A stretch of 64,000 nucleotides of DNA from Pachysolen tannophilus NRRL Y-2460 (Eukaryota), in contig KV454012.1 of NCBI GenBank assembly GCA_001661245.1, positions 826,848 to 890,847 of the forward strand. Direction: 5' to 3'. Below the pieces are notes generated by a model. It did not search any database, was not told the origin of the DNA, and saw only the letters and a list, made by a program, of their open reading frames with translations. Below, in pieces: positions 2,344-60,480 of the stretch. The position numbers were made by a program, and so were the translations under genes. Numbering within the stretch: position 1 is the first letter of the stretch; each line of letters opens with the position of its first letter.

Positions 2344-5300
2344 TCAATCCCATTCAGAATCGCCTCTAGAACTTTTCAAACTCAAGACTTTCTCTTTTAA
2401 TCTCATCAAATCATCGTTGTCTTTTTGTAGAGAGGAAGCTCCGTTAAGTTTTTGACCATTTGACAGAGGCAGTAATGGATCCAAAGATGTTTGGAATGCA
2501 CACATATCTGCAATATTAGCAATATTAGTGCCACTGCCCAATTTTCCATTGGGAGTAGTAGCACCATTGGAAGTTGTACCATTCCATTTAAAAAACTCGT
2601 TAAAATAATTAAAGTCTTTATTTGCACTTGCATTGTTTTCCACGTTGGTGGTTGTTAAATTAGAAACTTCTAAATCCATAATGTCCATATCAACGTCATA
2701 AATATCCGACGCGGTATTTGCCGTTAATGATGAAACCTCGTGAGTATCACCTTTTCTTCTAATATTGTAGTTTGTTTTTTGATTGTGGTTGCCATCATTA
2801 TGAGTAAAAGTATCCAAGAAAGTATTAATATGATCAGTATCAACACTTCCACTAATACTACTACCATTTTTTGGATAATAACAATTGTCATAACCATTAA
2901 ATTGTGATTGTGAATTTCTATTCATGTTTGGATTTGGTTTATGATTCGCAAATAATGATCCAGTCCTATAACTAGCTGGTAAACTATTGGGGATTAAAGA
3001 ACTAGGTGGATTTGAATTACTCATTGAAGAATTTCCTCTTTTCATCAGCATTGATGTACTTGTTGCTGTGGTGCTAATCGATGAACTTCTTCTATTGATT
3101 GAGGATCCACGTGACATCATCATCGAGTTGTTATAAGTACTCGTACTGTTACTACTATTACTTGCACATGATGATGCTCTTGACATTCTATTTGCTTGAA
3201 TGCTGCTAAATAAACTATTACCACTGGTAGTTTCTGTGGTTTTGGAACAATTGGTTCCAACTGAAGAAGCTGAAGATGAAACAGCTGACACTGGTGTTGG
3301 AGTTACACATGAAACACTTCTTTGTCTCTTGCTACTTGGTTGGAAAGACAAATCAACCATATGTGGGCTGATGTTGTTTGATGATGGGCTACTCAATTCT
3401 GTAAAACAGTTAAGATCAGTATCATCAGTACTAGAACCTGCAGCCCCACTACTACTATGACTATCATCAAGACCCATACTTAATAAAAATCCATCTTGAT
3501 TGTTATTACAATAATTGGATCCACTACCAACTATAGAATTGCATGTAAAACTAGTATGAATGTCTTCTAATTCTTTCATAACATCAACAACATTGTTGCT
3601 TCTCCATTCTAATAACTTTCTTGTAGCAGATGTTAATCCTTTAATTAATGCATCCAAATTTCCAAAGCTGACTTCAAACATGACTACAATCTTGGATATA
3701 ATAGATTTAGTCTTGAGTACATCATCTGATGGTTGTTCTTTACCATTATTAGTACAGCTATTATTTTCATTACTATCATCCAACAGTAAATAATTCAAGC
3801 AAGCAAGTAGAAGATAAATCTTAAAATCATAAGGTAATAAACTTAATCTATCAACTATCAAAAATTTTTTATTTATAGACAATTTTTCAACGCTAATTTC
3901 TGTTTGATCTTTATTGAATTTATTTTCATCTTCTTCTAACGGAGTTTGTGGTAAAGGATTTTTACGTTTTCTTCCTCTTGTTGCTCTTTTCTTGAATTCA
4001 TGTTTTGTCATTCTTGTTAATGTATCGATTCCTAATTGGATGTATTCCATAGATAACTGTGACAACACTTGTAATTTTGAATTGTTCTTAATGTTATTAA
4101 CTGTGTTATCCTTCTTAGTAACAAATTCTGGTTTAATGCAATTTTTAGTAAACTTGAAATAAATTGACATTCTGTACATAAGGTAACATGCATTAAGCTG
4201 GTTTATCAAGATACCATTATTTTCTTTAATTTTTTTATCGTCATCATCTTTTAATAATTTTTCTACTAATGAGTCAAATTTTTGTTTCCAAGAAGCTAAT
4301 CTTTCATCAATAGTTTGTAAAAAAATTGGGAATGATTCTTCCGTATTATTATACCATTGATCAATTAAATCGTTAAAATCTGAAGGAATAATTTTGAGTA
4401 ATTTAATATATTCCAAAGTAAAAACTAATTCTTCTTGTAAGACTTTAACTGTTTCTAAAGAAGAAGGTTCTAACCAAGAGTTTTCAAGTGACAAGTTATC
4501 AGTAATATCAAATGTCAATGACAATGTTGAAAATCTATAATTGCAATTTATCTTGATTAAATGATACAAGATTTTAAAAGACCAATAAAGTTTTAATCTT
4601 ACAAATGTATCTTGTAATTCCATTTTCACCTTATTGTTGTTGCCATTTTGTTCTAATTCTAATGACAGAGATACAGAAGGTGATTCAAGTTTTTGTTTTG
4701 AATTTTCATCTTCTTGATCTTCTTCCCTCTTAACAGTATTTAATGCACCTATATCTTGTGTTGCTAATGTTTCTGAAGTTTTCAAATCTATAACTTCTGT
4801 TGCTTCTTTTGGATTATTTTCAATTTCCCCTATAGATCCAGTAGTCATTGTTTCAGTATTATCAGATGCATATTCCAAGTAATCAGAATTAATATTTAAA
4901 CCTAAACAATTAATATAGCTTAATGACATTGAAACCAATTGGAAAATCCATTCATCTAATGATTCAGTAGTTTCAATATAATTAACTTTATAATTGGATC
5001 TAGGTAATTCAAAAGTGTACAAATAGTGTAATAATAATAATAAATATTCTAATTTAGCAACACTTGGTTTTGTAAAATCAATTGTTGCAGAAATTTTTTT
5101 AAAAAATTGAATTCCAAGAAATTTATAATCTCTATTATTAATATTATCATTATGATTATCTTCTTCTTTTGCTAATGAAGAATCATACACAGATGTACAA
5201 TTAAAGGAAAATTTCATCATTATCAAAGTTTTTGCAATAAATAATTTTGCAACAGTATCAAAATCATCAAAATAAGTTTGAGTTTCTATATCATACTTGT

Positions 5301-6448
5301 TGAAAAAATTCAAGTAATCATTATAATAATTTTTAAAATCCAAGATTGGTATAAATTTGTTAAAGTTGTTAAAAAATTTAGCAATCAAACTATCCATACC
5401 ATTTAAAACAGTTACATTAAAACCAGAGACTTTATTATTGTTATTATTGTCGGATGAAATGGCAATTGTATCATCATCGTTTCTTTTTTTCAATAAAGGT
5501 TTAATATAATTGAACAATAAGAGATTATAATCAACATTTAAATCGCAATCATCTTGAGAAAATTTTAAAGTTTCTACTTGTTTTTTCTTTTGATATTGTT
5601 GATTATTTTCATATTGATGTTGATATAAATTAACATCAACAAATTTCAATATATCGTAAAGTGGAGATTTTCTTTCTTGACCAATAACCAATGAACCTGT
5701 TTTCGGAGAGATCTTGAACACTTGTCTTGGAATTGGAGTGGTAGGTTTGAAATTATTATTGTCATTGTTGTTGTTGGTGGTAGCACAAGAATGTATGTTT
5801 GTATCGAGAGCTGTACCGTGAGTACCATCAATACACTGAGTACACTTGTTAGATTGAACGCACAGTGAATTTAATTTATCCTGTTTATCCAGTGAATGCA
5901 GTGAATCCAATGTATCAAGTAATTTTTTTGGGGCGCTTATACTATCATTACCAAATTTGTCCAATTTAGCCGCCGTTGAAACATTTGCTGTTTTCTGCAA
6001 ATTCTCCAACTCTAATCTTATCCTATTATTTTCTAATTCCAATTCTACAACTTGTTTTTCTAAAGTTTTTGTATAATTTCTCGGAAATGATGCTCTAGAA
6101 AGTTTATTTGTTGTTTTACAGAAAAAACCAACTTTTTTACAATTTGAACAACCTCCGGGCATACCATCACATTTTATTTTTTTAATACAACAACGATCAC
6201 ATGCTTGTGAAATTCTTGGTTTTCCAGTAGAAGTTTTAATTATATCCCTGAATTCAAATAAACAATTTTTTTTTTTTTTTTGCCAGAGTGTTAGTAACTA
6301 ATATCATTAAATAAATTTATTCATATATGTACACATCATCCAATTTTTTTTTTTTTTTGTTTAAAAAAAAAAAAAACATACCATGTCTTTGTTTCATCAT
6401 TTTGATTCAGGTGTAATTTCCCATTATTTTTTTTGTATTGTAAACCAT
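2344..6448 (-). CDS. Zn(II)2Cys6 transcription factor, Sip4/Cat8 family, two exons (exon 1 uncertain)
   Basis: The frame extends 5' of the 6162 ATG to give RISQACDRCCIKKIKCDGMPGGCSNCKKVGFFCKTTNKLSRASFPRNYT, a Sip4/Cat8-type cluster plus linker. Exon 2 starts at 6247. Exon 1 (6448-6382) is 1 nt short of frame. Confidence 0.8.
6248..6381 (-). other. spliceosomal intron of the Zn2Cys6 gene
   Basis: GTATGT donor (6381-6376), TACTAAC branch point (6296-6290), CAG acceptor (6250-6248). Confidence 0.85.
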
Positions 6449-12192: not shown

Positions 12193-13905
12193 TTAAACTG
12201 AACTTATTTCGACTTTGCTTATTATTTTTTCCAAATCTTGGTTTGAATTTTCTGATCCTTCTTCTAATACTTCAGTTTCATATTCTTCATCTTCCATAGA
12301 CGGTTCCATATTGAGTTTTTCACATTCTTCTAATGTGAAAGCATTGAACATATCTGTCTTATCCAAAGCACCGGCATTTTTAACAGGAAAGATTAAGCAC
12401 ACGATATAGTAAAGCAGCAGGGGACATATAAAAGAGAAAACTGTACTATTATAATAAAAATCAATGATGTTTGTCTTAATCTCTATATCGGGGTTCACCA
12501 CTGCAATCAAACCTGGGATACCAGGAGCAACACCCGCCAAGAAACAACATATAGCTCTCCAATTGAAACCTTTGGTAAAATAAAAACTTCCATCTTTATC
12601 TGTGGTGTATAGTTCAGATATTGGAATTCTAGCTTTTCTAACAAGATGGAAATCAGTAACAATAATACCAATGATTGGTGTCATGATAACACCAAAAGAA
12701 GACATAACATTGATAAAGACACTCGAACTATTATAAAAATTCCATGGTTGAACACACCATGACAACGTTGCTGTTATTATACTACCACGGACAATATTTA
12801 TATATCTTGGTAATACACCTGCAAGATCCATTCCACCTGCAAATCCATTAGCTAGTACATTAAAACATAATTGAGATGAGGCAAAAGCGAGTCCACAAAA
12901 AAAGGCTGCTGCTCTTGGTCCTGCACTGTAATTGTCTGTCATCCAGCGAAGACAAATATCTGTTGGTAACCAATATTCATCACCATATAATTGTGATGTA
13001 GTTGAAGCAGATACCAACCCCATAAATGGTACAAATGTCCCCATAGTCATAACACTAACAATAATACCGAAATACATTTTCTTTTTTGACGATGCAAATC
13101 TAGAGAAATCTGATTGATTTGTAACATCTGGACTCAAAGCACTAGTCCAGATAGTTATAGAGTATAACCACATCCAACCTGTGTTCCATGAGGATAACTC
13201 TACTTTTTCTTGCCAAATAGGTCCTGGACCACCATTTCGATGTAGGCAATTCCCAAAAATGGCCATCATGGCAATCAATGCAATGATACAAGACCCATTT
13301 ACCCAAGAATTCATTTTCTCTGGTTTCATGAAAAAGAAGAAATATTGAATTATTTGGAAAACTAAGAAGCCAACGAAATCTCTTGTAGTCATTGCAAGTG
13401 AATCTGGAAATGTATTTTTCATATTCATAAAATTCTCAGACCAAGATGATAATATAACCACTATTGCAACTCCACCAAGCCAACTCTGTGATCCATAGAA
13501 CACAATAGATAAGACAATTCTGGTAACTATCCCAATTCCAGAACCATATATTCCAAATACCATTCTCTGGCACACGGTAAAACCAATGTGGAATTTTGAT
13601 CCTGGTGTTGAGTTCAAACAAGTATAAATACAAAAAATTACATTACCTATTATCAAAGAACCCATAGTTTGCTGAATATTTAAACCTAACGATAACATAG
13701 CAGAACCTGTTGACCAAGTCCAAATAGTAATCGATGGAACTGCCCAATACCCAAAAAATGACCAAAACCCCCATATTCTTCTATGTGGTGGCATAGGTTC
13801 CAAATCTGGATTTCTCAAGATACTCAAAGGTTTCCCATCATGAGGAACTTCAAAAATCTTAAGTCTTTCTTGAAGTCTTGTTAATCTTGTCTCAACAGCG
13901 GACAT
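12193..13905 (-). CDS. NCS1-family nucleobase/thiamine permease, Thi7/Nrt1-like
   Basis: LRNPDLEP..WGFWS, IGFTVCQRMVFGIYGS, VTNQSDFSRF, GGMDLAGVLPRYINIVRG, QPWNF; many TM segments. Confidence 0.9.
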   Translation of the reverse strand: MSAVETRLTRLQERLKIFEVPHDGKPLSILRNPDLEPMPPHRRIWGFWSFFGYWAVPSITIWTWSTGSAMLSLGLNIQQTMGSLIIGNVIFCIYTCLNSTPGSKFHIGFTVCQRMVFGIYGSGIGIVTRIVLSIVFYGSQSWLGGVAIVVILSSWSENFMNMKNTFPDSLAMTTRDFVGFLVFQIIQYFFFFMKPEKMNSWVNGSCIIALIAMMAIFGNCLHRNGGPGPIWQEKVELSSWNTGWMWLYSITIWTSALSPDVTNQSDFSRFASSKKKMYFGIIVSVMTMGTFVPFMGLVSASTTSQLYGDEYWLPTDICLRWMTDNYSAGPRAAAFFCGLAFASSQLCFNVLANGFAGGMDLAGVLPRYINIVRGSIITATLSWCVQPWNFYNSSSVFINVMSSFGVIMTPIIGIIVTDFHLVRKARIPISELYTTDKDGSFYFTKGFNWRAICCFLAGVAPGIPGLIAVVNPDIEIKTNIIDFYYNSTVFSFICPLLLYYIVCLIFPVKNAGALDKTDMFNAFTLEECEKLNMEPSMEDEEYETEVLEEGSENSNQDLEKIISKVEISSV

Positions 13906-14591: not shown

Positions 14592-16451
14592 TTATTCTTC
14601 CAAAGCATCATGTTGCTCTTTAACAACTTTTAAAGCTTTTTGGAAAGTATCTATTAATTCTGATCTATCTTCCAATCCAATACTTATTCTGATTAAATTT
14701 CTATCGATCCCCCATTTTTCAACTTCATCCAATTCTTGGAAATAAGCCAAGATTACATAAGGTGAGCATAATGTAAAATTTGTTCCTAAAGAAGGGCCTT
14801 TTGAAAGTTTGACCTCATTGAAAAAACACCTAGCATCGTTTTCGTTTGCAAATACTATGGATATCAAACCTCCATATCCTCCCTTTGGAGTCTTTAACAG
14901 GTCATAATGTTTTCTTGTTGGAGATAAAAATGGATAATAAATATTTTTAATAAGTGGTGTTTCTTGAAATAATTTAACAGCAGCCATTGCATTCTCATTG
15001 ATTCTTGATGAACGTGATTCAAAATCTCTAGAATTTCTTTCTAAATAAATTGCATCTTCTGCCCAAAAACTTTCTGGTTCATAAAGTTCCTCATCCAATG
15101 TTTGTTTCAAGATTTGATAATGTTCAGAACTAGGATTTAATACTAAGGAACCAGCCATGACATTAGAATCTCCGCTAAATACTTTTGTCAATGATGATAC
15201 CAATATATCACAGTATGGCAAAACATGAATATTTAAGAAATTTCCAACTGTTTCATCTACAACCACAGTAAAGTTATAAAATCTCGATAATTCCCAAATC
15301 TTTATCAAATCTGGAGTTTTCAATAAAGGATTTGAAGGACATTCACAAACTAAAGTCAATATTTGTAATTCACCAGTCTCAAGTTTTCTTTCTAATTCTA
15401 ATAATGAATCATCATCACCAAAACCATAGAAATGTACACCTTGCCCCCATTTTTTCAAAATATTTAATGTATCAACATATGGGAACCCAAAACATACAGA
15501 TTTTTGTTTTGCTGCTCTTTCAGGGAAACTTAACAAAATCAGTTGGTGAGCATTAAAAATTGAAGCCATTCCTGATGGGAATAAATAAACATCATCTTTT
15601 GATAACTTATTTTTTTGATTATCATCGGCTTCATTAATTTTTGTACTAATTCTTTTTTGTAAAATAATTCTTGCTTCCTTATTGAATCTTAAATCCAAGT
15701 TTCTACCAAACCTTTCTTCTATAAAAGTTGAGTATTCTTTTTCCTGAGTAGGATTTGTTGTTGTTGTTTCTAAAATAGATCCAGCTGTTCCAGTTGAAGC
15801 AGACGCTTCCACGGGTGCAACGGTAGCTGTTACTGCAGTTGCTGTGGAAGAAGATGATCTCAAAGAAGATGACCTCCTCGAAGTTTTATTTTTCAGCTTT
15901 TGTTTCTGTTGTAAATCTTTTGAATTATGTTCTGATAATTCCAACAATTTTGGTTTTAATTCTGACAATATATATTCACCCATTCTTGAAGAAATACCTT
16001 GACCAGCATGTTGCCAATATTGCTTTGCTAAAGGATACTCACTTGAAGGGAAATATACAACACTAAAGTTTGTTTCTATTCTAATACTTTCATCTTCTCC
16101 CTGTGTTGGAGAAGGAGTTGAAAGTTGTAAAATTCTAACATTACAATTTGATAATAATGTCTTTTCCTTAATAAATTTTCTACAACTTTTAGCAATCTTA
16201 TAAGTTGGGAAAATCATACATCTTTCACCATCTTTACCATATGACAATTCTAAAAGATTTGACAACTCTTGAATCCAAGAATGTATGAAAAATCTTGGAT
16301 ATCCAGAATTCATCTTATTAACAACCCATTCTTGACCTTCTTCATAACCAACATTAGCTTCCCATGTAGGTAAAGTCACCGAAACAGCATGCAGAGTATA
16401 ATTCGGAATAGGCGCCCCAACCTCTTGAGAAATTATATCCTTGCTTTTCAT
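14592..16451 (-). CDS. STR2: cystathionine gamma-synthase
   Basis: HAVSVTLPTWEANVGYEEG, GYPRFFIH, SSLTKVFSGDSNVMAGS (PLP lysine), KGPSLGTNFTL. Confidence 0.95.
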   Translation of the reverse strand: MKSKDIISQEVGAPIPNYTLHAVSVTLPTWEANVGYEEGQEWVVNKMNSGYPRFFIHSWIQELSNLLELSYGKDGERCMIFPTYKIAKSCRKFIKEKTLLSNCNVRILQLSTPSPTQGEDESIRIETNFSVVYFPSSEYPLAKQYWQHAGQGISSRMGEYILSELKPKLLELSEHNSKDLQQKQKLKNKTSRRSSSLRSSSSTATAVTATVAPVEASASTGTAGSILETTTTNPTQEKEYSTFIEERFGRNLDLRFNKEARIILQKRISTKINEADDNQKNKLSKDDVYLFPSGMASIFNAHQLILLSFPERAAKQKSVCFGFPYVDTLNILKKWGQGVHFYGFGDDDSLLELERKLETGELQILTLVCECPSNPLLKTPDLIKIWELSRFYNFTVVVDETVGNFLNIHVLPYCDILVSSLTKVFSGDSNVMAGSLVLNPSSEHYQILKQTLDEELYEPESFWAEDAIYLERNSRDFESRSSRINENAMAAVKLFQETPLIKNIYYPFLSPTRKHYDLLKTPKGGYGGLISIVFANENDARCFFNEVKLSKGPSLGTNFTLCSPYVILAYFQELDEVEKWGIDRNLIRISIGLEDRSELIDTFQKALKVVKEQHDALEE

Positions 16452-17132
16452 CTCTTCAATATCAACAATATCAACAATATCAACAAGATCTATTGAAACA
16501 ATTATACTGATTGATTTTAAATGATTATGACTAACTTTTGTTGTAACCTCCTATCATTGCCATTTTTTTCTATGTGAAAAATTTTGATACTACAAAACAA
16601 AAAAAGCCAAAAGAAAAAGCGGAGAAGTTTTTCAGGAGAAGTTTTTTTTAAGGAAAAAACAAACTTCTCCGTTTTCCGCCAGTAGGAGAAAAAGTGACCT
16701 TTGATTGGTAGGTAAAGTAGGTAAAGTAGGTAAAGTAGGTAGTAAACAATAGATTAAGAGTTTTGTTTAATTCATCATTTACAAAAGAATATTACATCAA
16801 CCTAAGGTCAATGGGGTTTGACCTTTATCCCCTTTCTTTAAAGTATAGTAAGTATAGTTTTTGAAATTGGTTAAAGTGAAAGAGAAAAAAAAAATTAAAA
16901 AAAAAATAAAAAAAGAAAGAAAAGAAATAAAAGTAAAAAAATACTTTTTAATCATTTCTTTTGTTTCTGTGCATATATAATAACAATCAATTCCATCAAA
17001 AACAAATCTTTCTAGCTTTATTTCTAACATCAAATTCTTTCCAACTTGCCAATTTGTAGTTCATAACTTGGTCATCGCATTCTCTTCATCCCACCAATTG
17101 TTCTCTATTAATATTATATATTCATCTTATCT

Positions 17133-17413
17133 TTATTTTTCCGAAGGTAAAATCTCAATGACCTTTTCACCCTTGTTGAATCTTGGATGTCTTGGATCAT
17201 TGATGAAAGCATCTGAGTTCATTTGAGCCTTGGCAGCACCACCAATTAAGTAGTAAGTAATACCCGCTAAACAAGTCAAAATTTAGTTAGTACACATCCA
17301 TTTCCAAAAATAAAAAATAAAAAAAAAAATACATCAATTATTTACGTACCACCAACAAAAAATGGCCAGTATGGTTTTAAAAGTGGAGTTGCAAATCTAG
17401 TATATGAAGCCAT
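17133..17413 (-). CDS. ATP18: mitochondrial ATP synthase subunit i/j; exons 17413-17350 and 17266-17133
   Basis: Spliced product MASYTRFATPLLKPYWPFFVGAGITYYLIGGAAKAQMNSDAFINDPRHPRFNKGEKVIEILPSEK matches Atp18 (TP.LK.YWPFF, FINDPR.PRF). Intron has GTACGT, TACTAAC (17292-17286) and TAG. Confidence 0.93.
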
Positions 17414-17714
17414 TGCAAATAAATTTTTAACTGATTGAAAATTTATAAATGAATATTATAATCTTTTTGTGACACTATATTATTACTACAATATATATTG
17501 CTGAAAGTTTTAAATCGAATTTTATTCGTTCACAAGAGAAATTTTGAAAAAGGACAAAAAAAATTAAATTAAAAAAAAAAAAAAAAACTACCCGGACATT
17601 GGTAATTTCGGCACTACCTTTTTCTTTTGTGTGGTGTAAGGTGTAGGTGGTGTACAATGGTGTAGGGTTTATATTGTTGGAGCAAGTGCTGTGATGGGTG
17701 TAGGGTGTGATATT

Positions 17715-18677
17715 CTATATGGCTAAAGTTATGCTATATATGCGAATCTCTGGAGTGTTGTCGTTCAACCATACAAGACTATTATTGGTGGTGGTATTTG
17801 CTAGTCTTTTGTCAATTACGTTATAGTTGAATTCATTTTTGGATAACAATTTTTCAAACTCATTGATTGTGTTTTCATTTCTTATTGTTGATGCTATTAT
17901 AATCTCTTTAACATTTGTATTTTGGAAACCTTGCTTGAAACATGAAATCAAATCTGGAAGTTCGGTCTGATCATAGGTTATATCTGCTCCGACAATAATA
18001 TCTATATCTGTTGTTGGGAAAGAGTCTTTAGACCACCAAAGTTTACAACACCTTATCGCATTATTATGAAGACTATCTCTTGGAACCAGTATATCATTTA
18101 AAGACAAGTTAGATGTATGGAGCGTTTCAATCAATGACAAGTTACCATCTGTCATAATTATATTTTTAACAATTTTTGTTGATGTTTCAATCAAATATTT
18201 ATAAATCGATAATCCAATTAATCCAGTACCAGTACCTAATTCTAGTAAACTTAAATTCTCAATTTTTTTAGACTTTAAGTAATCTCCATTAACTAAAAAA
18301 TCAGCTAAATATATTGAAGCCTCCCATGTTCTTAACCCTGTTGTTCCTAACCCACTAATCAATTTTGGAGTTTCTTTAATTTTTATACTCTTGGTAATTT
18401 TTTTACTTATTGAATATTCAACAATATCATAATCTGTAGGTGCCAACAGCTTCAGAGGTAATAATCTAACATAGGTATCATATACAAGTTCATCTATTTC
18501 CAAATTTCTCGTTTCTAACTCTGCAATTAATTTCTTAAGAAAACTTTTAACATAATAAGAGTTTAACGGTATAATATCTTCAATTATTGAGATTACACGT
18601 TGTTGCAGATTAATCGTATCATCACTACTTGTATCTAATAAGTCATCTGGTATGGCAATAGATGAAATTGGCACTCG
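17715..18677 (-). CDS. EFM3: protein-lysine N-methyltransferase Efm3/EEF2KMT, gene body lacking its first 10 codons
   Basis: GTTGLRTWEAS, LELGTGTGL, MTDG, GADITYD. No ATG at the 5' end; the missing start MDILSSRLRQ is on the + strand at 19468-19497. Confidence 0.88.
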   Translation of the reverse strand, partial: RVPISSIAIPDDLLDTSSDDTINLQQRVISIIEDIIPLNSYYVKSFLKKLIAELETRNLEIDELVYDTYVRLLPLKLLAPTDYDIVEYSISKKITKSIKIKETPKLISGLGTTGLRTWEASIYLADFLVNGDYLKSKKIENLSLLELGTGTGLIGLSIYKYLIETSTKIVKNIIMTDGNLSLIETLHTSNLSLNDILVPRDSLHNNAIRCCKLWWSKDSFPTTDIDIIVGADITYDQTELPDLISCFKQGFQNTNVKEIIIASTIRNENTINEFEKLLSKNEFNYNVIDKRLANTTTNNSLVWLNDNTPEIRIYSITLAI

Positions 18678-19330
18678 GACTGGGTAAATGGGATGAAATA
18701 ATTTCTAAAATAGAGTGTGGTCCATCTCAAAGACATTTTTTTAAAAGGAAAGAAGGTCTTACATTGAAAAATTATACTTATGTAAAATTAAGACAATATC
18801 CAGATGGAGGAATTGCAAGATTTAGACTTTATGGAACTGTGATTCCAATTATACCTTTAAATATTAATAGTACTGTATTAGATTTAGCAAGTGCAAAAAA
18901 TGGAGGAATTGCTGTTGCATATTCTGATCAACATTTTGGAAGTGCTGATAATTTATTATTACCTGGTAGAGGTCATGATATGTCTGATGGTTGGGAAACA
19001 AAACGTTCAAGAACTCCAAATCATATAGATTGGGTCATTACTAAGTTGGGGAATAAAACTAAAATTCAAGAAATTGTTGTAGATACAGCTCATTTTCGTG
19101 GTAATTTCCCCCAATTTGTTAAAATATTAGGAATAAATAATGAAAAACAAGTTCCTGAATTACCAGATGATTTATGGGATATATTAGTTGATAAAAGTAA
19201 AACTTTTGCAGATAAAGAACATTCTTTCAAAGTTCCAAGCAGTGATAAATCTTATACTCATGTAAAGATGATAATCATTCCAGATGGTGGTGTTAAAAGA
19301 TTAAAAGTTTTTGGAACTATTTCTTTGTAA
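18678..19330 (+). CDS. DAL2: allantoicase, C-terminal part (inside the inverted segment)
   Basis: ECGPSQRHFF, YPDGGIARFRLYG, SDQHFG, DGWETKRSR, VDTAHFRGNFP, IPDGGVKRL. Confidence 0.92.
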
Positions 19331-19467
19331 AAAGAGTATTATTTTTAAAGCATTGTATAAATTTTCACTGGTAAAGTAAAAGTAAAAGTAAAGTAAAAAA
19401 AAAAAAAAAAAAAGAAAAAAAATTTCTTAAACAACAACAATTAATAAAAGATTTATATAATATTTAA

Positions 19468-19497
19468 ATGGATATTCTATCAAGTAGATTACGTCAG
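19468..19497 (+). CDS. EFM3: displaced first 10 codons of EFM3 (MDILSSRLRQ)
   Basis: Joins in frame to CGA GTG CCA (RVP) at 18677 on the minus strand, recreating the Efm3 N-terminal RLxQRxP motif. Confidence 0.8.
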
Positions 19498-19852
19498 CCA
19501 AATCATCAGTGGCTTCAACTGAAATAAATGGAGCATGATTCCCATTGAAAAAAGTAGTATCAATCTCTGCAGCAATTATTTTTGCAGAAGAAACACCCAT
19601 TTTAATAATAACAAAATCAGATTCTTCTTCATTATGTCTTCTAGTTTCCCAACCATCATACCATGCACCCGAATAAACAAATTTTGTTGGATCACGAATT
19701 GGAGGTTTTGGTTTAATCAAATTTTCAGCAGATGCAAACCATTCATCTGAAAATTCTACAATTTCACCACCTAATTTTTCACCAATGACGTCTATATGAT
19801 TACAGACTATTTGGTCATGAAATTCTTTTTCAGCAAGGATCTCAACTGACAT
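19498..19852 (-). CDS. DAL2: allantoicase, N-terminal part
   Basis: FSDEWFASAENLIKP, WYDGWETRRHN, EIDTTFFNGNHAP. Homology stops at about 19498 and the ORF runs on into non-homologous sequence. Confidence 0.92.
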
Positions 19853-20599
19853 TATTATTATTATTATTATTATTAATTTTTTTTTTATTCGACTCTTTAC
19901 ACACAGCTATCCCGGACTTCTTATGAATTAACAAATCCTTGCCAAAACGTTAGTATTTATATACTTGAAATCTCTTAAAACTTCATTATCGGATTAGGCC
20001 GAGATTTTTTTTTTGACAGAGAAAAAAAAAAGAGATAAGAAAAATGATACATGTGTAAATTGGATTTGTTAGTCAATTTCAACCGCTTGAAAAGGTTTTC
20101 TTTAACTTTATTTAATCGATACCTGTAAGGAATTTAGATTCATTTTCACTGTTATGTAGAGGTGGAGATATTCTTGAAATTGAGTGGATTTTTTATCTTT
20201 GGATTTTTTTCTTTTTATTGCTCGATTTACTGTTAGATAAAACCTATATTGATTTCCCTTAATAATATGAATGTACAACAGCCGCAGTGCACACAGTACA
20301 CGCAGTTCATGAAGTTCACCAAGTGCAAACAAGAGAACCTTGGAGGAAACATCTTATTACCTAGATAAAATATAAACTTATTTTCTTTCTGTATCATTAT
20401 TATTCAAGCTCAGTGGGTTGTCAATTTTACATGATATTTCTTGTTATAGTTATGTGTTGTTGTTGTTGTTGTTGTTCTTTAGTATTAATTATCTCTTGTT
20501 GTTGCGGAGATAGTAGTATATGACCTTCCCCATTAGGAAATCTCTCTATATATTTTTTTCTTTCTTTGCTTTTTTTCACTTTGTTTCTCCATCTTTTCG

Positions 20600-20631
<32 letters not shown>

Positions 20632-20706
20632 TCACAATTAGCGCATATTAATAAGTTGAAGGATTCATATTATTAAAAAAAATTTTTTTTTCTGAGGGAA
20701 TGTATA

Positions 20707-21678
20707 ATGTGTATCTTACTATCTGCATATAATGCTCATCCAGACTATGCGCTTATACTTCTTTCAAATAGGGATGAATATTTTGTAAGAAAGACTTCAC
20801 CTGCAAGTTATGATAAGAAAACAAATACTATAGCGCCTTATGATCTTTCTAGACCAGAATGTGGGACATGGATAATGTTAAATACCAAGACCAACAAGTT
20901 GGCTATCTTGCTTAATTTTAGGGAAGAAGATGATGATGAACAAGTTGCAAAGCTAGGTAATCTGGTTTTAAGTGCATCATCATTAAAGAATTCATTAATA
21001 TCTAGAGGTTTAATACCAATGATTTATGCAAGAGATGGATTAGAAAATGATAAAGGAGAAGATGATTTACAAAAAAAATTAGAATCAGAATTTGGATATC
21101 CAGATAATAATATTGGTGGTTTTAGTTTAGTATTTGGTAATTTACAAAAATTAATTACGAAAAAGGATACAATGTATATTTTATCCAATAGAGCAAAAGA
21201 TTCAAGTAAACAACCAATTTTTAATAAAGATTATTCAAAATCATATTTTGTTTTTTCAAATTCATCAATTGATATTGATACAAAATGGCGTAAAATTGAT
21301 GTTGGAACAAATTGTTTAAAAGAATTAATTGAAAAAAATTATAATTTAAATGAAAAAGATTTAATTAATAAATTATTTGAATTATTATCTAAAAATGATT
21401 TAAATTATTCTTGTAAAGATTTACGTCAAAATTTTCAAAATTTAAAAGATACTATATTTGTACCACCATTAATAAATAATGATAAACTTTTAAAAGATGG
21501 TAAATATGTTGGACAATATTATGGTACAAGAACTCAAACAATAATATTAATCAATAAAAATGGAGATTTAAAATATATTGAAAAAACTTTACATTCAAAA
21601 GATTCTTCTGAAGTTGAAAATTCTTTTAAAAATTTTGAATATAATATTTTTAACAATGAAAATGTTAAGGAATATTAA
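20707..21678 (+). CDS. NRDE/TANGO2-family protein (YGR127W-like)
   Basis: MCIL start, NRDEYF, GTW, SRG, GGFSL and YGTRTQT motifs. Confidence 0.9.
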   Translation: MCILLSAYNAHPDYALILLSNRDEYFVRKTSPASYDKKTNTIAPYDLSRPECGTWIMLNTKTNKLAILLNFREEDDDEQVAKLGNLVLSASSLKNSLISRGLIPMIYARDGLENDKGEDDLQKKLESEFGYPDNNIGGFSLVFGNLQKLITKKDTMYILSNRAKDSSKQPIFNKDYSKSYFVFSNSSIDIDTKWRKIDVGTNCLKELIEKNYNLNEKDLINKLFELLSKNDLNYSCKDLRQNFQNLKDTIFVPPLINNDKLLKDGKYVGQYYGTRTQTIILINKNGDLKYIEKTLHSKDSSEVENSFKNFEYNIFNNENVKEY

Positions 21679-34156: not shown

Positions 34157-35524
34157 ATGACTGTTTCAAAGACATCTATGGTTCGTATAGTGCAATGGGG
34201 TTTAGCCGCCATTGCATTGGCGATTTCTGGGAAGTTAACTTCAGATAATACTTCATTATCATCTATAGCTTCTGATCTTAACGATTTAAATTCTTCAAAT
34301 TCATCAACATCGTCAACCTTATCTTCCTTAACTAAAAGGTATGCATATTTGAATAAAGAAATTTTAAGTGAAGGTAATTATAGCGAAGAAGAAAATAATT
34401 ATAATGGGAGCGGTTATTTACAACTATTAAAAAGAGAGGATGATGATGACGATACTGATTCAAGTTCTAATATAACTTTGGCTTCTAGTTTAAAATCATC
34501 AGCCATTTCATTGTCTTCAGGTTCTCTTTCGGTTTTTTCAATTCCTACACTTTCATTTTTACCAAAATCGTTCACTGAAAATTATGTCAAAGCGTTCTCA
34601 ATCACTTCTACTTCAACTTCAACTTCAAGTTCGTTAACTAAAACTGATTACAGTTATATGGGTGGATTAGCGGTTAGTGAAGTAGGTGCCCATGTTTTGT
34701 TTTTTGCCAGTTTTGTCTACCAAGTTGCTGAATATGGCGCAATGGATTGCACAAGTATTGAGAGTTTATTACAAAATTATAATGTAACTAATGACGATAG
34801 TGAAGATCTAAGTGATTTTTTCAATTATCTAGAGTCAAGTAGTAATGATACTAGTAGTGATGATGACATAATTAGCTCAATATTTTCAGGTTATTCAAAT
34901 TCGTCTACATCTTCTTCAGCTTCTTTGAGTGGTCTCAGCACTAATAATCTTACTACAACTGAGACTGAAGCTAAGTTATTGATACAATTGGCTTCAAACT
35001 GTCAATTGAAAAAAGCTTCAATTGGTATTTGTTTTGTAGTATGGGTTGCTTATATTATTACCACAAGCTCAGTCTCATATAGTGGCTACAGCTTATATAA
35101 ATCCTATAAGAGTTCCAAAAGCAGCAGCGGTGATAATAAAACCACAGAACCAAAAACTGGTTCTAGTGCTCTGGCAAAAAATCTAGATTCAAATAATACA
35201 GATCATAAGAATAATTTTTCAACAAGGGAGAGTCCAAGTAAAGCAACGCCAACAAGTAGCGGGACTAAAGATGTCGTTGATACAGGAAAGAATAATCAAT
35301 TTCGTTTAATTTATAACAAGACAGGAGTATTTAGTTCTCATGGAAGCAATAATGCATCTTCAACTACAATTGATAACGACCAAAGTAAAAACGATTTTCC
35401 AGTAGAACCTAAGAAGAAGACTCAATATAGGTTGGTATATAATAGGTCGGTAACTTTTCCAAAAATTGAAAGCTATGAAGTTGATGATGATGAAGATCCA
35501 AGTATGGAAAAATTGGATGTTTGA
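34157..35524 (+). CDS. hypothetical multi-pass membrane protein with Ser-rich loops (possibly MARVEL-like)
   Basis: About 455-aa ORF with hydrophobic segments at VRIVQWGLAAIALAISG, GAHVLFFASFVY and CQLKKASIGICFVVWVAYII. Confidence 0.75.
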   Translation: MTVSKTSMVRIVQWGLAAIALAISGKLTSDNTSLSSIASDLNDLNSSNSSTSSTLSSLTKRYAYLNKEILSEGNYSEEENNYNGSGYLQLLKREDDDDDTDSSSNITLASSLKSSAISLSSGSLSVFSIPTLSFLPKSFTENYVKAFSITSTSTSTSSSLTKTDYSYMGGLAVSEVGAHVLFFASFVYQVAEYGAMDCTSIESLLQNYNVTNDDSEDLSDFFNYLESSSNDTSSDDDIISSIFSGYSNSSTSSSASLSGLSTNNLTTTETEAKLLIQLASNCQLKKASIGICFVVWVAYIITTSSVSYSGYSLYKSYKSSKSSSGDNKTTEPKTGSSALAKNLDSNNTDHKNNFSTRESPSKATPTSSGTKDVVDTGKNNQFRLIYNKTGVFSSHGSNNASSTTIDNDQSKNDFPVEPKKKTQYRLVYNRSVTFPKIESYEVDDDEDPSMEKLDV

Positions 35525-55875: not shown

Positions 55876-57795
55876 TCAGGCTAGAGGGGTGATGGGAGGG
55901 GGGGAAGAAGTTTTAGGAACTGGTGTTGGTGTAAGTGTAGGAGGTGTTGGCGGAGAAGAAGCATTTTCAGAATGCTCTCCAGAATGATTATCTTTTTGTT
56001 CCAAAGATTCTGTATGGTCTTGATCATGGTCTTTGTCTTGGTCTTGATCTTTATCTTGACCTTCTTGTTGTTGATTATGGTCTTCGGCCGTGGTAATACT
56101 TCCACTTGCACTTCCACTAATGCTTTCTATTTCATCTTCCTTTTTTTTATTTCTCTCTTCTTCATCAATACATGTTAATCCATGATCTTTTAAAAAAAAA
56201 GAGGTTAATAAACAGAGAATCATTAATGGGAACCAAAGATAAAAGATATTTTTAATGGCGTCCATGAAATATTGCTGGACAATAGAGACTTCAGAAGGAT
56301 CTATACTGCTTATATCAATCTTAGAATATAAATTATCTTCAATATAAATCTTGGTAGATGAAGATAAATTCTCATCAGCATTAACTTTATTCAATATTGT
56401 ATTCGAATAAATTAAAGAACAAAATGCCAAACCAACTGCACCACCAAATGATCTAACAACATTTCTTATTGAAATTACAACTGATCTATCAGAAAGTTTG
56501 GCATGAGATTGAGCTGCAACTAAAGTTGGTTGGAAAATACAACCATTTCCAATTCCAATAACAATACAAATGAATACACAACCAACAGGTGGTGTATCAA
56601 CTTCCCATAATAATAATAATCCTGTCCCCAAAGTTTGGAAACAATAACCAATAATCACAACATGAATAAAATGTTTAACCATAGATATAATAAAACCAGA
56701 AGCTATACCGCAAATTGCTTGAGTTAATAAAACTGCCAATGTAAAACAAGATGTGACATTTGTTGAATAACCTCTAACAATTTCAAAATAATATGCAAAG
56801 AAATATGAAGTTGAAAAAAAATTTAAACCAAAACAAAAAGATTGAAGATAAATAAGATTTAAAGATCTATTATTAAATAACCGTATTGGAATTAATGGTA
56901 ATTTAGCTATTTTCCATTCCACAATGACAAACATAATTAAGCATAAACCACCACTTATAAACATTCCAATAACTAATCCACTATCCCATTCATAGATTGA
57001 ACCACCACCATTAATAGGTATTAAAAATAAAATTAAACCTGCAGTACTGAAAAAAAACCAATAAAATCTATATTTTTGATTTTTTCCATCTTAGAAATAG
57101 GGGCCTTAGAACCTGGTACTATAAACCAAGTTATAACGGCTGCAATAATAAATAATGGACAAAGCATATGATAAAAATCCCTCCATGAAGCACCAACTAT
57201 AAAACCAGAACAAATAAAGGGACCTAAACCATTCCCTAATCCAACAAAAGAACCTAATATTCCTTGGTACTTTCCTCTTTGTTCTAAAGTCACAATATCA
57301 GAAACAATAACCATTGTTAAACTGGTTATACCTGCTTGGCCCACGCCGCTAAATGCTCTAAAAACATATAACATTACACCACTATTTGAAAATCCACAAA
57401 TTAAATCAGAAATCGACATTATTATCATTGACAGAATTAAAACACTTTTTCTACCAAAAATGTCAGAAAATCTTCCAAATAAAACTTGGAAAACAGTATT
57501 AGCAATTAAAGCAGAGGTGCCTCGCCCAACTTATTGTCTTTTCTGCATTTATAGATTCTGCAATATAAGGTAAAGCTATAGTAATTCCAGTTTGATCAAC
57601 AAATGCAAAAAAAAGTGCACAAGACATTCCAAGTAATACTGTGATTAATTTCTTACCAGTAAGTCTATGCAAATGAGCATCACCTAATTTATCATCTAAT
57701 GCTTCAGTACTGCTCGGTTTTTGTACATTTTGAGACTCTTTATCAACAAATCTATGAGTTAATCCCTCACTATTATCTCTGAATGATGTACTCAT
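55876..57795 (-). CDS. DHA2-type MFS transporter, paralog A; needs +1 at 57522 and one extra T at 57050-57057 (about 639 aa)
   Basis: Three ORF pieces are collinear with paralog B: FVDQTGI..ALP, ISWA|GTSALIANT, GRFSDIFGRK, VSDIVTLEQRGKYQG, IFQPTLVAAQ, RNVVRSFGGA. Confidence 0.85.
57519..57525 (-). other. candidate +1 ribosomal frameshift heptamer GCG-AGG-C (paralog A)
   Basis: The 0 frame TGG GCG AGG CAC stops at 57499. The +1 frame GGC ACC TCT restores SWAGTS. Confidence 0.8.
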
Positions 57796-58586: not shown

Positions 58587-60480
58587 CTAGTGAGGATTAA
58601 TACTGAATTTGTTGTTGTGCCGTGTATTATTTTTTGCCATAGTTAGGTCTTCGATATCGCTGGGCATATTTTTTGAGGATATTGATTCATTTTGAAAAGC
58701 GTGAGATCCTGTGGTGCTTTCATCATCATCATCATCATCATCATCATCGTTATCATCGTTATCGTTATTGTTATCGTTATCTTTATCGTTATCTTCATTG
58801 GAGTAACATTCATCATTTTGCTCGTCAGGGTCATCGATGCATTTTAAACCATGATCTTTTAAAAAGACAGAGGTACATAGACAAAACAGCATTAATGGAA
58901 ACCAAAAATAGAAAACGTTTTTGAGTGATTCCATATAATATCTTTTCGTTGCTATAACTTCTGACAGTTGAATTTGAGACAATGAAATTTGAGAATAAAT
59001 ATGTTTTTTAATATAATTCTTTGTATTTTGCGATAAATGACTATCTGAATCGATTTTCTTCAATAATGAATTTGAATATATTAAAGAACACAATGCTAAT
59101 CCTATGGCTCCTCCAAAAGATCTGACAACGTTTCTCATAGAAATTACCACTGATCGATCTGCCAATCTCGAATGGGATTGAGCAGCAACTAGTGTAGGCT
59201 GGAAAATACATCCATTACCAATTCCAATGGTAATACAAATAAATACACACCCAACAGGGGTGGTATCCTCTTTCCATAAAAGTAATAACCCATAACCTAA
59301 AGTTTGCAAACAATATCCTGTAGTAATGACCTGTCTGAAATGCTTAAGCCTTGTCAATATATATCCACTTATTATTCCAGCCAGTGATTGAGTAAAAAGA
59401 GCTGCCAGAGTAAAACAAGAGGTTATTAAAGCTGAATAACCACGAACAATTTCAAAATAGTAAGAAAAGAAATATGGGAGAGAAAAATAAGTTATTCCAA
59501 AGAAAAATGTATGAAGAAATATAATATTCAACGAATTATTTTTAAATAAATGTAATGGGATTAATGGTAACTTGGCAACCTTCCATTCTACTAGGAAAAA
59601 CGTAATCAAGCATAATCCACCAGAAATAAACATTCCAATTACTATCCCACTATTCCATGGATATAAAGACCCACCTCCATTAATGGGGATCAAAAATAGA
59701 ATCAAACCTGCGGTACTGAAAAAAAACCCAATATAATCAATTTTTTTAATTTTTTCCATTTTAGAAATTGTTGGCTTGGAATTTGGAACAATATACCAAG
59801 TTACCACAGCAGCAATAATAAATAAAGGACAAAGCATATGATAAAAATCTCTCCATGAGGCTCCTTTAATAAATCCAGAGCAAATAAAAGGACCTAATGC
59901 ATTACCAAGGCCAATAAAACCACCAATAATACCTTGATATTTACCTCTTTGTTCAAGGGTGATGATGTCAGAAACAATAACCATTGTCAAACTACTGATT
60001 CCCCCTTGTCCAATACCACAAAATGCTCGAAATACATACAACATAATACCATTAGTGCAAAATCCACAAACAAGATCAGAAATTGATAATATAAGCATCG
60101 ATGCAATCAAGACGTTTTTTCTACCGAAAATATCTGCAAATCTTCCGAATAAGACTTGAAAAACGGTGTTAGCAATTAAATTAGAGGTGCCTCGCCCAGC
60201 TAATGGTATCTTCTGCATGCAAAGATTTAGCCATATGTGGCAAGGCTACACTAATACCAGTTTGATCAACAAAACCAAAAAAAATTGCAGAAGCTAATCC
60301 TAATAACACAGTAATTAATTTTTTACCTGTAAGCCTATTCAAATGTGCATTACTCAATTTTTCATCTAAAGGTTGATTTTCGTTATTTTCTTGCTTCTCA
60401 ATGATTTGTGATTCAGTGAAATTTAGTTTTTCACCTTGACAAAATGCTTTGTTTCCCATTTCTTGGCTTGAAGCACTCAT
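58587..60480 (-). CDS. DHA2-type MFS transporter, paralog B; needs only the +1 shift at 60192 (630 aa)
   Basis: ORF 60480-60181 (N-terminus plus TM1) overlaps the ORF ending at 58587; they join as ISWA|GTSNLIANTVFQVLFGRFADIFGRK. Confidence 0.88.
60189..60195 (-). other. candidate +1 ribosomal frameshift heptamer GCG-AGG-C (paralog B)
   Basis: The 0 frame reads TGG GCG AGG CAC CTC TAA. The +1 frame GGC ACC TCT AAT continues the transporter. Confidence 0.82.

What the first reader, a model, noticed from the sequence alone, without database searches (positions are those of the whole stretch)
18678..19497. Clean 820-bp inversion that breaks both DAL2 and EFM3 and can be reversed in frame
Seen: allantoicase is split into an N-part on the minus strand (19852-19498) and a C-part on the plus strand (18678-19330). 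EFM3 lacks a start, while its N-terminus ATG GAT ATT CTA TCA AGT AGA TTA CGT CAG sits on the plus strand at 19468-19497. Flipping 18678-19497 gives DAL2 ...GAT GAT TTG G|GA CTG GGT AAA TGG... (1008 nt) and EFM3 ...CGT CAG|CGA GTG CCA... (993 nt), with no base gained or lost and no decay in any piece. The ends share only 1 bp of inverted microhomology (G18677/C19498) and no inverted repeat. Inference: a very recent NHEJ-type inversion giving a double knockout, a misassembly, or (least likely without repeats) an invertible switch.
Basis: seen in the sequence. Interest (0 to 1): 0.8.

Follow-up and report, generated by a model that had tools for sequence, protein, structure and literature searches.

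The report
Assembly error flips two yeast genes
An 820-base piece of this yeast genome assembly is back to front and seems to break two ordinary genes, but sequencing data from two studies show both genes whole, so it is almost certainly an assembly mistake that has left two wrong protein records in public databases.

Summary
In the assembly, 18678-19497 is inverted and splits allantoicase (DAL2) and the eEF2 methyltransferase gene EFM3. Flipping it gives open frames of 1008 and 993 nt; the ends share 1 nt and no significant inverted repeat. The sequencing data do not carry the inversion. In 4 of 4 runs laid (2 samples, 2 studies), Logan contigs change strand at exactly these two points, joining both genes whole at full depth (64-190x). 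Those contigs account for all depth at both assembled junctions. The whole genes keep 123 of 124 and 37 of 38 conserved positions, are single-copy and carry neighbouring locus tags in other yeasts. The organism is Pachysolen tannophilus (CUG=Ala). Verdict: local misassembly (about 0.92). Public protein databases carry its traces: a 141-aa truncated allantoicase and an EFM3 model with an invented first exon. Contigs drop rare variants, so a rare flipped minority is not excluded, but nothing supports it.

The parts
19498..19852 (-). 5' part of DAL2 (allantoicase), codons 1-118, outside the flipped piece. As assembled it runs on into 24 unrelated residues and stops at 19427 (141-aa ORF).
   Evidence: PF03561 positions 1-85; 141-aa ORF is on record in NCBI, UniRef and nr (P0241); joined to 18678 onward in run contigs (records 4, 10, 16, 22)
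18678..19330 (+). 3' part of DAL2, inside the flipped piece (end of repeat 1, all of repeat 2, stop codon)
   Evidence: PF03561, 2 stretches, E 5e-61; up to 69% identical to yeast allantoicases
19331..19467 (.). 137-nt A-rich spacer between the DAL2 stop and the EFM3 start, inside the flipped piece. The poly-A tract is where the laid pieces stop (19364 / 19432).
19468..19497 (+). first 10 codons of EFM3, inside the flipped piece
   Evidence: aligns without gaps to homologue N-termini when joined to the rest; joined to 18677 in run contigs (records 3, 8, 14, 21)
17715..18677 (-). rest of EFM3 (eEF2 lysine methyltransferase family, FAM86-like), outside the flipped piece
   Evidence: PF10294 E 6e-21; 99% identical to P0121, about 40% to named EFM3 of other yeasts
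18677..18678 (.). left assembled junction; no laid contig crosses it in the assembled order
   Evidence: (tables 5, 8)
19497..19498 (.). right assembled junction; no laid contig crosses it in the assembled order; 1-nt inverted microhomology with the left one
19042..19093 (-). antisense stretch of DAL2 that the public gene model P0121 uses as the first exon of EFM3 (its residues 1-17, followed within one base by GT); end approximate

Best explanation
The inversion is an error of this assembly. In the organism, DAL2 (335 aa) and EFM3 (330 aa) are intact, single-copy genes in tandem on the minus strand, 137 nt apart. Shown: contigs of 4 runs join them so, and the joined genes look like working orthologues. 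Inferred: during assembly, scaffolding or finishing, an 820-nt piece was placed back to front and butt-joined on both sides. That gives two reciprocal junctions with no base gained or lost and needs no repeat. Which step did it cannot be told with these tools. Gene callers then made a truncated allantoicase and an EFM3 model with a false first exon. From established knowledge of the families, DAL2 hydrolyses allantoate in purine breakdown and Efm3 methylates eEF2; neither was tested here.
For:: 4 of 4 runs laid (X5 of study P2; X1, X2, X4, one sample of study P1) each show two opposite-strand joints, 18676/7 to 19497/8 and 18677/8 to 19498/9. Depths are 100/104, 184/155, 190/159 and 73/64, like the flanking contigs; sides are 66-67 and 255 nt; no other letters lie in these pieces; the two read-order contigs explain the depth in all 8 junction bins to within 0.09, so a hidden contig across an assembled junction could have depth about 0.3 at most; holders have 0.94-0.95 of the sampled words, and junction-crossing words are 58 of 2171 (2.7%), which fits but does not prove it; no decay (123 of 124 and 37 of 38 conserved columns kept; homologue median departures 1 and 0); no second copy in G000; neighbouring locus tags for the two genes in Ogataea angusta, O. 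parapolymorpha and Metschnikowia sp. JCM 33374; no significant inverted repeat.
Against: Only contigs of runs were available, and the tool states that contigs drop rare variants. It is not known whether any laid run is the DNA the assembly was built from. A clean reciprocal inversion without repeats is not the usual assembler error, and the nearest N gap is 5974 nt away, so the faulty step is not visible. A full-length allantoicase of this species was not among the 120 hits listed.
Confidence: 0.92

Rival explanations
1. A real but private rearrangement. The inversion arose by end joining in one clone, library insert or subculture that fed the assembly, and the assembly recorded it faithfully. 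Other cultures are collinear.
For: Two reciprocal junctions with 1-nt microhomology and no loss are what end joining can give (established knowledge). The junctions are far from N gaps.
Against: No contig in 4 runs of 2 samples carries either junction. A double knockout would need to be the consensus of the assembled DNA yet absent from every run laid.
Confidence: 0.06
2. A programmed or recurrent invertible switch that turns DAL2 and EFM3 off together in a minority of cells, perhaps under nitrogen control as the species' mating-type flip is.
For: This species has a real flip/flop inversion at MAT, induced by nitrogen depletion (PMC6692504, passage read). DAL2 is a nitrogen-scavenging gene (established knowledge). 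Contigs can hide minor forms (tool note).
Against: The MAT switch uses 2-kb inverted repeats; here there is 1 nt, and the best nearby inverted match is at chance level. Contigs run unbroken through both sites in 4 of 4 runs. No depth is left over for the flipped form.
Confidence: 0.01
3. The inverted layout is real and fixed in the species. Allantoicase is made as two chains (the 141-aa ORF and the 222-aa ORF from the ATG at 18662), and EFM3 uses a new first exon as in model P0121.
For: Both ORFs exist as assembled. The break lies in a variable loop. P0121 and the 141-aa product are on record.
Against: The reads show the collinear order. The P0121 exon is antisense DAL2 sequence, needs an 8-residue insertion against all 11 other homologues shown, and scores 310.1 bits against 319.2 for the read-order start. 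Each record is a one-member cluster on one contig.
Confidence: 0.01

Closest known systems
Local inversion misassembly in a draft genome
   Same: A segment is reversed relative to the reads, and strand-changing joints in independent contigs fall at both ends. Gene models downstream are broken.
   Different: Such errors usually sit between inverted repeats or beside gaps (own knowledge). Here there is neither, so the step that made it is unexplained.
Saccharomycotina DAL2 allantoicase (PF03561, two repeats)
   Same: In read order: 335 aa against a homologue median of 339; 123 of 124 conserved columns kept.
   Different: The loop at the junction is a few residues shorter than in most homologues shown, similar to P0002. 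Broken only in the assembly.
Efm3 / FAM86A (EEF2KMT) lysine methyltransferase (PF10294)
   Same: In read order: 330 aa, with the N-terminal [QE]-R-[VI] motif found near the start of 51 of 79 yeast homologues; 37 of 38 conserved columns kept.
   Different: The public model P0121 has an 18-residue start taken from antisense DAL2 in place of the true 10 residues.
Flip/flop (FF1) mating-type inversion of Pachysolen tannophilus and Ogataea polymorpha
   Same: The same species; an invertible segment (PMC6692504 passages).
   Different: FF1 inverts 8 kb between 2-kb inverted repeats and is seen in both orientations. This segment is 0.82 kb, has no repeat, cuts through two coding sequences and appears in one orientation in the runs.

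Membership tests
Assembly artefact (local inversion) | Sequencing data cross the breakpoints in the other orientation | tested here: met
   4 of 4 runs laid, both joints, full depth
Assembly artefact (local inversion) | No sequencing data cross the junctions as assembled | tested here: met
   No such contig; residual depth within 0.09 in 8 of 8 bins. Holds for contigs only; raw reads were not available.
Assembly artefact (local inversion) | The assembly's own source reads contradict it | not testable with these tools
   Runs are coded; whether sample S1 is the source is not known
Flip/flop invertible switch (FF1 type) | Long inverted repeats flank the segment | tested here: not met
   1 nt at the junctions; longest exact inverted match within 30 nt is 5 nt as assembled and 8 nt in read order; gapped score at chance level
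Flip/flop invertible switch (FF1 type) | Both orientations occur in cultures | tested here: not met
   Only the collinear form in 4 of 4 runs; a rare form could be dropped from contigs
Flip/flop invertible switch (FF1 type) | Inversion is inducible (nitrogen depletion) | not testable with these tools
   Needs cultures
Fixed natural inversion with gene loss | Present in independent samples of the species | tested here: not met
   Absent from both samples laid
Fixed natural inversion with gene loss | Decay of the broken genes | tested here: not met
   No stops or frameshifts; conserved columns kept. A very recent event would also show none.
DAL2 allantoicase | Two PF03561 repeats in one chain | tested here: met
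   Profile positions 1-86, 102-154 and 1-154 lie in one 1008-nt frame in read order
DAL2 allantoicase | Allantoate hydrolysis | not testable with these tools
   Needs an assay
Efm3 / EEF2KMT | PF10294 domain behind a FAM86-type N-terminus | tested here: met
   PF10294 over its cut-off; named EFM3 among the best hits and P0121 named FAM86 N-terminal domain-containing. The N-terminal domain was not scored separately.
Efm3 / EEF2KMT | Methylates eEF2 | not testable with these tools
   Needs an assay or mass spectrometry

The most novel reading that the evidence does not exclude
A repeat-free, precisely reciprocal DNA inversion that switches off a nitrogen-scavenging enzyme and a translation-factor methyltransferase together in a small share of cells. 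It would be too rare to survive in run contigs but was caught once by the assembly, and would imply a recombination route in a yeast that needs no inverted repeats.
Probability: 0.01. Interest if true: 0.85.

Novelty: not a real feature. Interest (0 to 1): 0.07.

Why it matters
It matters for data quality only. Anyone using this assembly or its proteins would score the species as having a broken allantoicase and a wrong Efm3 N-terminus. A 141-aa allantoicase fragment (NCBI, UniRef, nr) and the 338-aa EFM3 model ODV96897.1 / UniRef100_A0A1E4TYT4 are on record. The species is the single reference for NCBI code table 26, so such errors can spread into comparative work (inference). I found no report of this error: searches for Pachysolen with allantoicase, DAL2, allantoin, EFM3, and assembly/inversion/misassembly listed no paper on it by title or abstract start. 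That library lacks most subscription papers.

Tried and rejected
Frame restoration as proof of exact breakpoints: rejected, because 841 of 5680 nearby pairs open both frames, and the DAL2 profile alone prefers other junctions (583.5 against 575.3 bits). A degenerate inverted match seen by eye at 18661-18672 / 19497-19507 as a template-switch site: rejected, chance level. A second intact copy or haplotig in G000: none found by DNA search (the other 36 matches are short A-rich stretches) or by PF03561. No RNA holder listed; this is no evidence on expression. The 222-aa C-part ORF is not in the protein collection under table 26 or table 1 (exact look-up only). Literature: searches listed only PMC7463906, only PMC4629796 (listing and abstract start seen, not read), none, and one search listed 20 of 1,717, of which only PMC6692504 names the species (12 of 16 passages seen). 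No structure or complex prediction was run, since both proteins are ordinary family members. No supplements were read.

Full report
What was checked. The sequence, ORF lists and Pfam agree. Allantoicase profile positions 1-85 lie on the minus strand at 19852-19498, the remainder and the second repeat on the plus strand up to 19330, and a Methyltransf_16 frame on the minus strand below 18704 has no ATG until 18155. Reversing the segment in a script gives frames of 1008 and 993 nt without internal stops, 137 nt apart. The window is G000:C2:826848-890847, in a genome of 12.6 Mb and 197 contigs. The EFM3 stretch is 99% identical to a named protein of Pachysolen tannophilus (P0121), which has Ala at the CTG codons, so NCBI table 26 was used from then on.

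How much the frame argument proves. Little by itself: 841 of 5680 breakpoint pairs near the two ends open both frames, because both frames depend on the same sum of coordinates. I scored the 841 with profiles from 115 allantoicases (P0002-P0120 of 325 aa or more; P0001 and 4 shorter rows left out) and 79 Efm3 proteins (P0122-P0200; the same-species model P0121 and 40 distant hits left out). The Efm3 start fits homologues without a gap. The DAL2 break lies in a variable loop, where the profile alone prefers other joins. The reversed genes show no decay: DAL2 departs at 1 of 124 columns conserved in 95% of homologues (homologue median 1) and EFM3 at 1 of 38 (median 0, maximum 5).

Repeats. No inverted repeat explains a flip. 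The repeat search over 17000-21500 shows only A/T-rich chance pairs among the 25 longest of 705. A gapped 11-15-nt inverted likeness next to the junctions is reached by 304-811 of 3000 random site pairs 820 nt apart in read order, and by 751-1961 of 3000 as assembled. The nearest N run is 5974 nt away.

The deciding test. Five public runs from 2 studies hold 0.94-0.95 of the sampled words (7 rows listed, 2 hold next to none; no RNA holder listed). Four were laid on 16800-21200: X5 (study P2) and X1, X2, X4 (one sample, study P1); X3 was left out because a call takes four. All are Logan contigs. Every one of the 4 shows two joints between opposite strands, at 18676/7 to 19497/8 and at 18677/8 to 19498/9, with one letter fitting either side (table 5). 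In each run one contig of 1220-1222 nt reads 17597-18677 and then 19497-19432 on the other strand, which is EFM3 whole. A second contig of 1120-1126 nt reads 19842-19498 and then 18678-19364, which is DAL2 across its break; the first ten bases of the gene lie beside a skipped repeat (table 8). Depths are 100/104, 184/155, 190/159 and 73/64, in the range of the flanking contigs, and these pieces carry no other letters. Table 8 hid 24 pieces, so I checked the depth bins holding the assembled junctions. The two contigs per run explain them to within 0.09 in 8 of 8 cases, leaving room for a hidden junction contig of depth about 0.3 at most. The limit is that contigs drop rare variants, so a small minority of flipped molecules cannot be excluded, and I do not know whether sample S1 is the assembly's source. 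With S1 left out, X5 is an independent sample showing the intact order. If S1 is the source, the assembly contradicts its own reads.

Context. G000 has no second copy of either gene by DNA search or of PF03561. The two genes have neighbouring locus tags in Ogataea angusta (KL921_002826 / 002825), O. parapolymorpha (KL918_005041 / 005040) and Metschnikowia sp. JCM 33374 (g1185 / g1184), and near ones in O. philodendri (000124 / 000127). Their orientation there was not checked. So the read order is very likely the old arrangement.

Traces in databases. The 141-aa ORF 19852-19427, the DAL2 front plus 24 unrelated residues, is on record in NCBI, UniRef and nr as a one-member cluster. P0121 (ODV96897.1) is an EFM3 model whose first 17 residues come from the antisense strand of DAL2 starting at 19093, followed within one base by a GT; it scores 310.1 bits against 319.2 for the read-order protein. 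The 222-aa C-part ORF was not found by exact look-up, and no full-length allantoicase of this species was among the 120 hits listed of 2945.

How it most likely arose. Shown: the assembly and the run contigs differ by a clean reversal of this segment. Inferred (0.92): a short piece was placed back to front and butt-joined during assembly or finishing; the step is not identifiable here. Rivals: a private rearrangement in one clone, insert or subculture that fed the assembly (0.06); a rare programmed switch (0.01); a fixed inversion with split genes (0.01).

Comparison with known systems. This species has a true invertible locus: an 8-kb MAT region between 2-kb inverted repeats, induced to flip by nitrogen depletion (PMC6692504, 12 of 16 passages seen). 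The present segment fails both features of that kind that could be tested, repeats and two orientations. The genes themselves are ordinary DAL2 and EFM3; their biochemical roles are taken from established knowledge, not tested. Five paper searches listed no report of this error; only listings and abstract starts were seen, apart from the passages of PMC6692504, and no supplements were read.

Verdict. Observation confirmed in the assembly; not a feature of the organism as far as 4 runs of 2 samples show. Novelty: not a real feature. Interest 0.07, for curation value. The most novel reading not excluded, a repeat-free switch in a rare subpopulation, has probability about 0.01.

Noticed in passing
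window 55876-57700 (-) and 58587-60218 (-): Two tandem MFS transporter genes (67-81% identical pieces). The downstream copy is split by a frameshift at a run of T near 57050 and appears to have a second one upstream, near 57500; the upstream copy's ORF also starts inside the domain (profile position 39). These could be homopolymer errors of the assembly or real decay.
   Followed up: partly
protein cluster 4 (P0014, P0246-P0259): The 90% cluster of Ogataea allantoicases also lists 311-aa EFM3 proteins and one 280-aa member. This may come from a fused or mis-called model of the two neighbouring genes in some Ogataea assembly.
   Followed up: no
window 18662-18664 (+): An in-frame ATG 16 nt outside the left junction gives the DAL2 C-part its own 222-aa ORF as assembled. 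It is antisense EFM3 sequence and disappears in read order.
   Followed up: yes
window 12193-13905 (-), 14592-16451 (-), 20707-21678 (+): Neighbours: an NCS1 permease (PF02133; purine, uracil, thiamine, allantoin family) about 5.6 kb from DAL2, a PLP-dependent Cys/Met enzyme, and a TANGO2 gene. Whether the permease is an allantoin transporter linked to DAL2 was not tested.
   Followed up: no
window 34157-35524 (+): A 455-aa serine-rich ORF with an N-terminal hydrophobic stretch and later hydrophobic segments, with no Pfam match at E 0.001.
   Followed up: no
window 2344-6162 (-): A 1272-aa ORF without a Pfam match that begins with Cys residues like the second half of a zinc cluster; it may be a transcription factor with an upstream exon (the likeness is recalled).
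   Followed up: no
window 20475-20621: No depth in any of the 4 runs laid, in a low-complexity stretch; the tool skips repeats, so the hole shows nothing.
   Followed up: no
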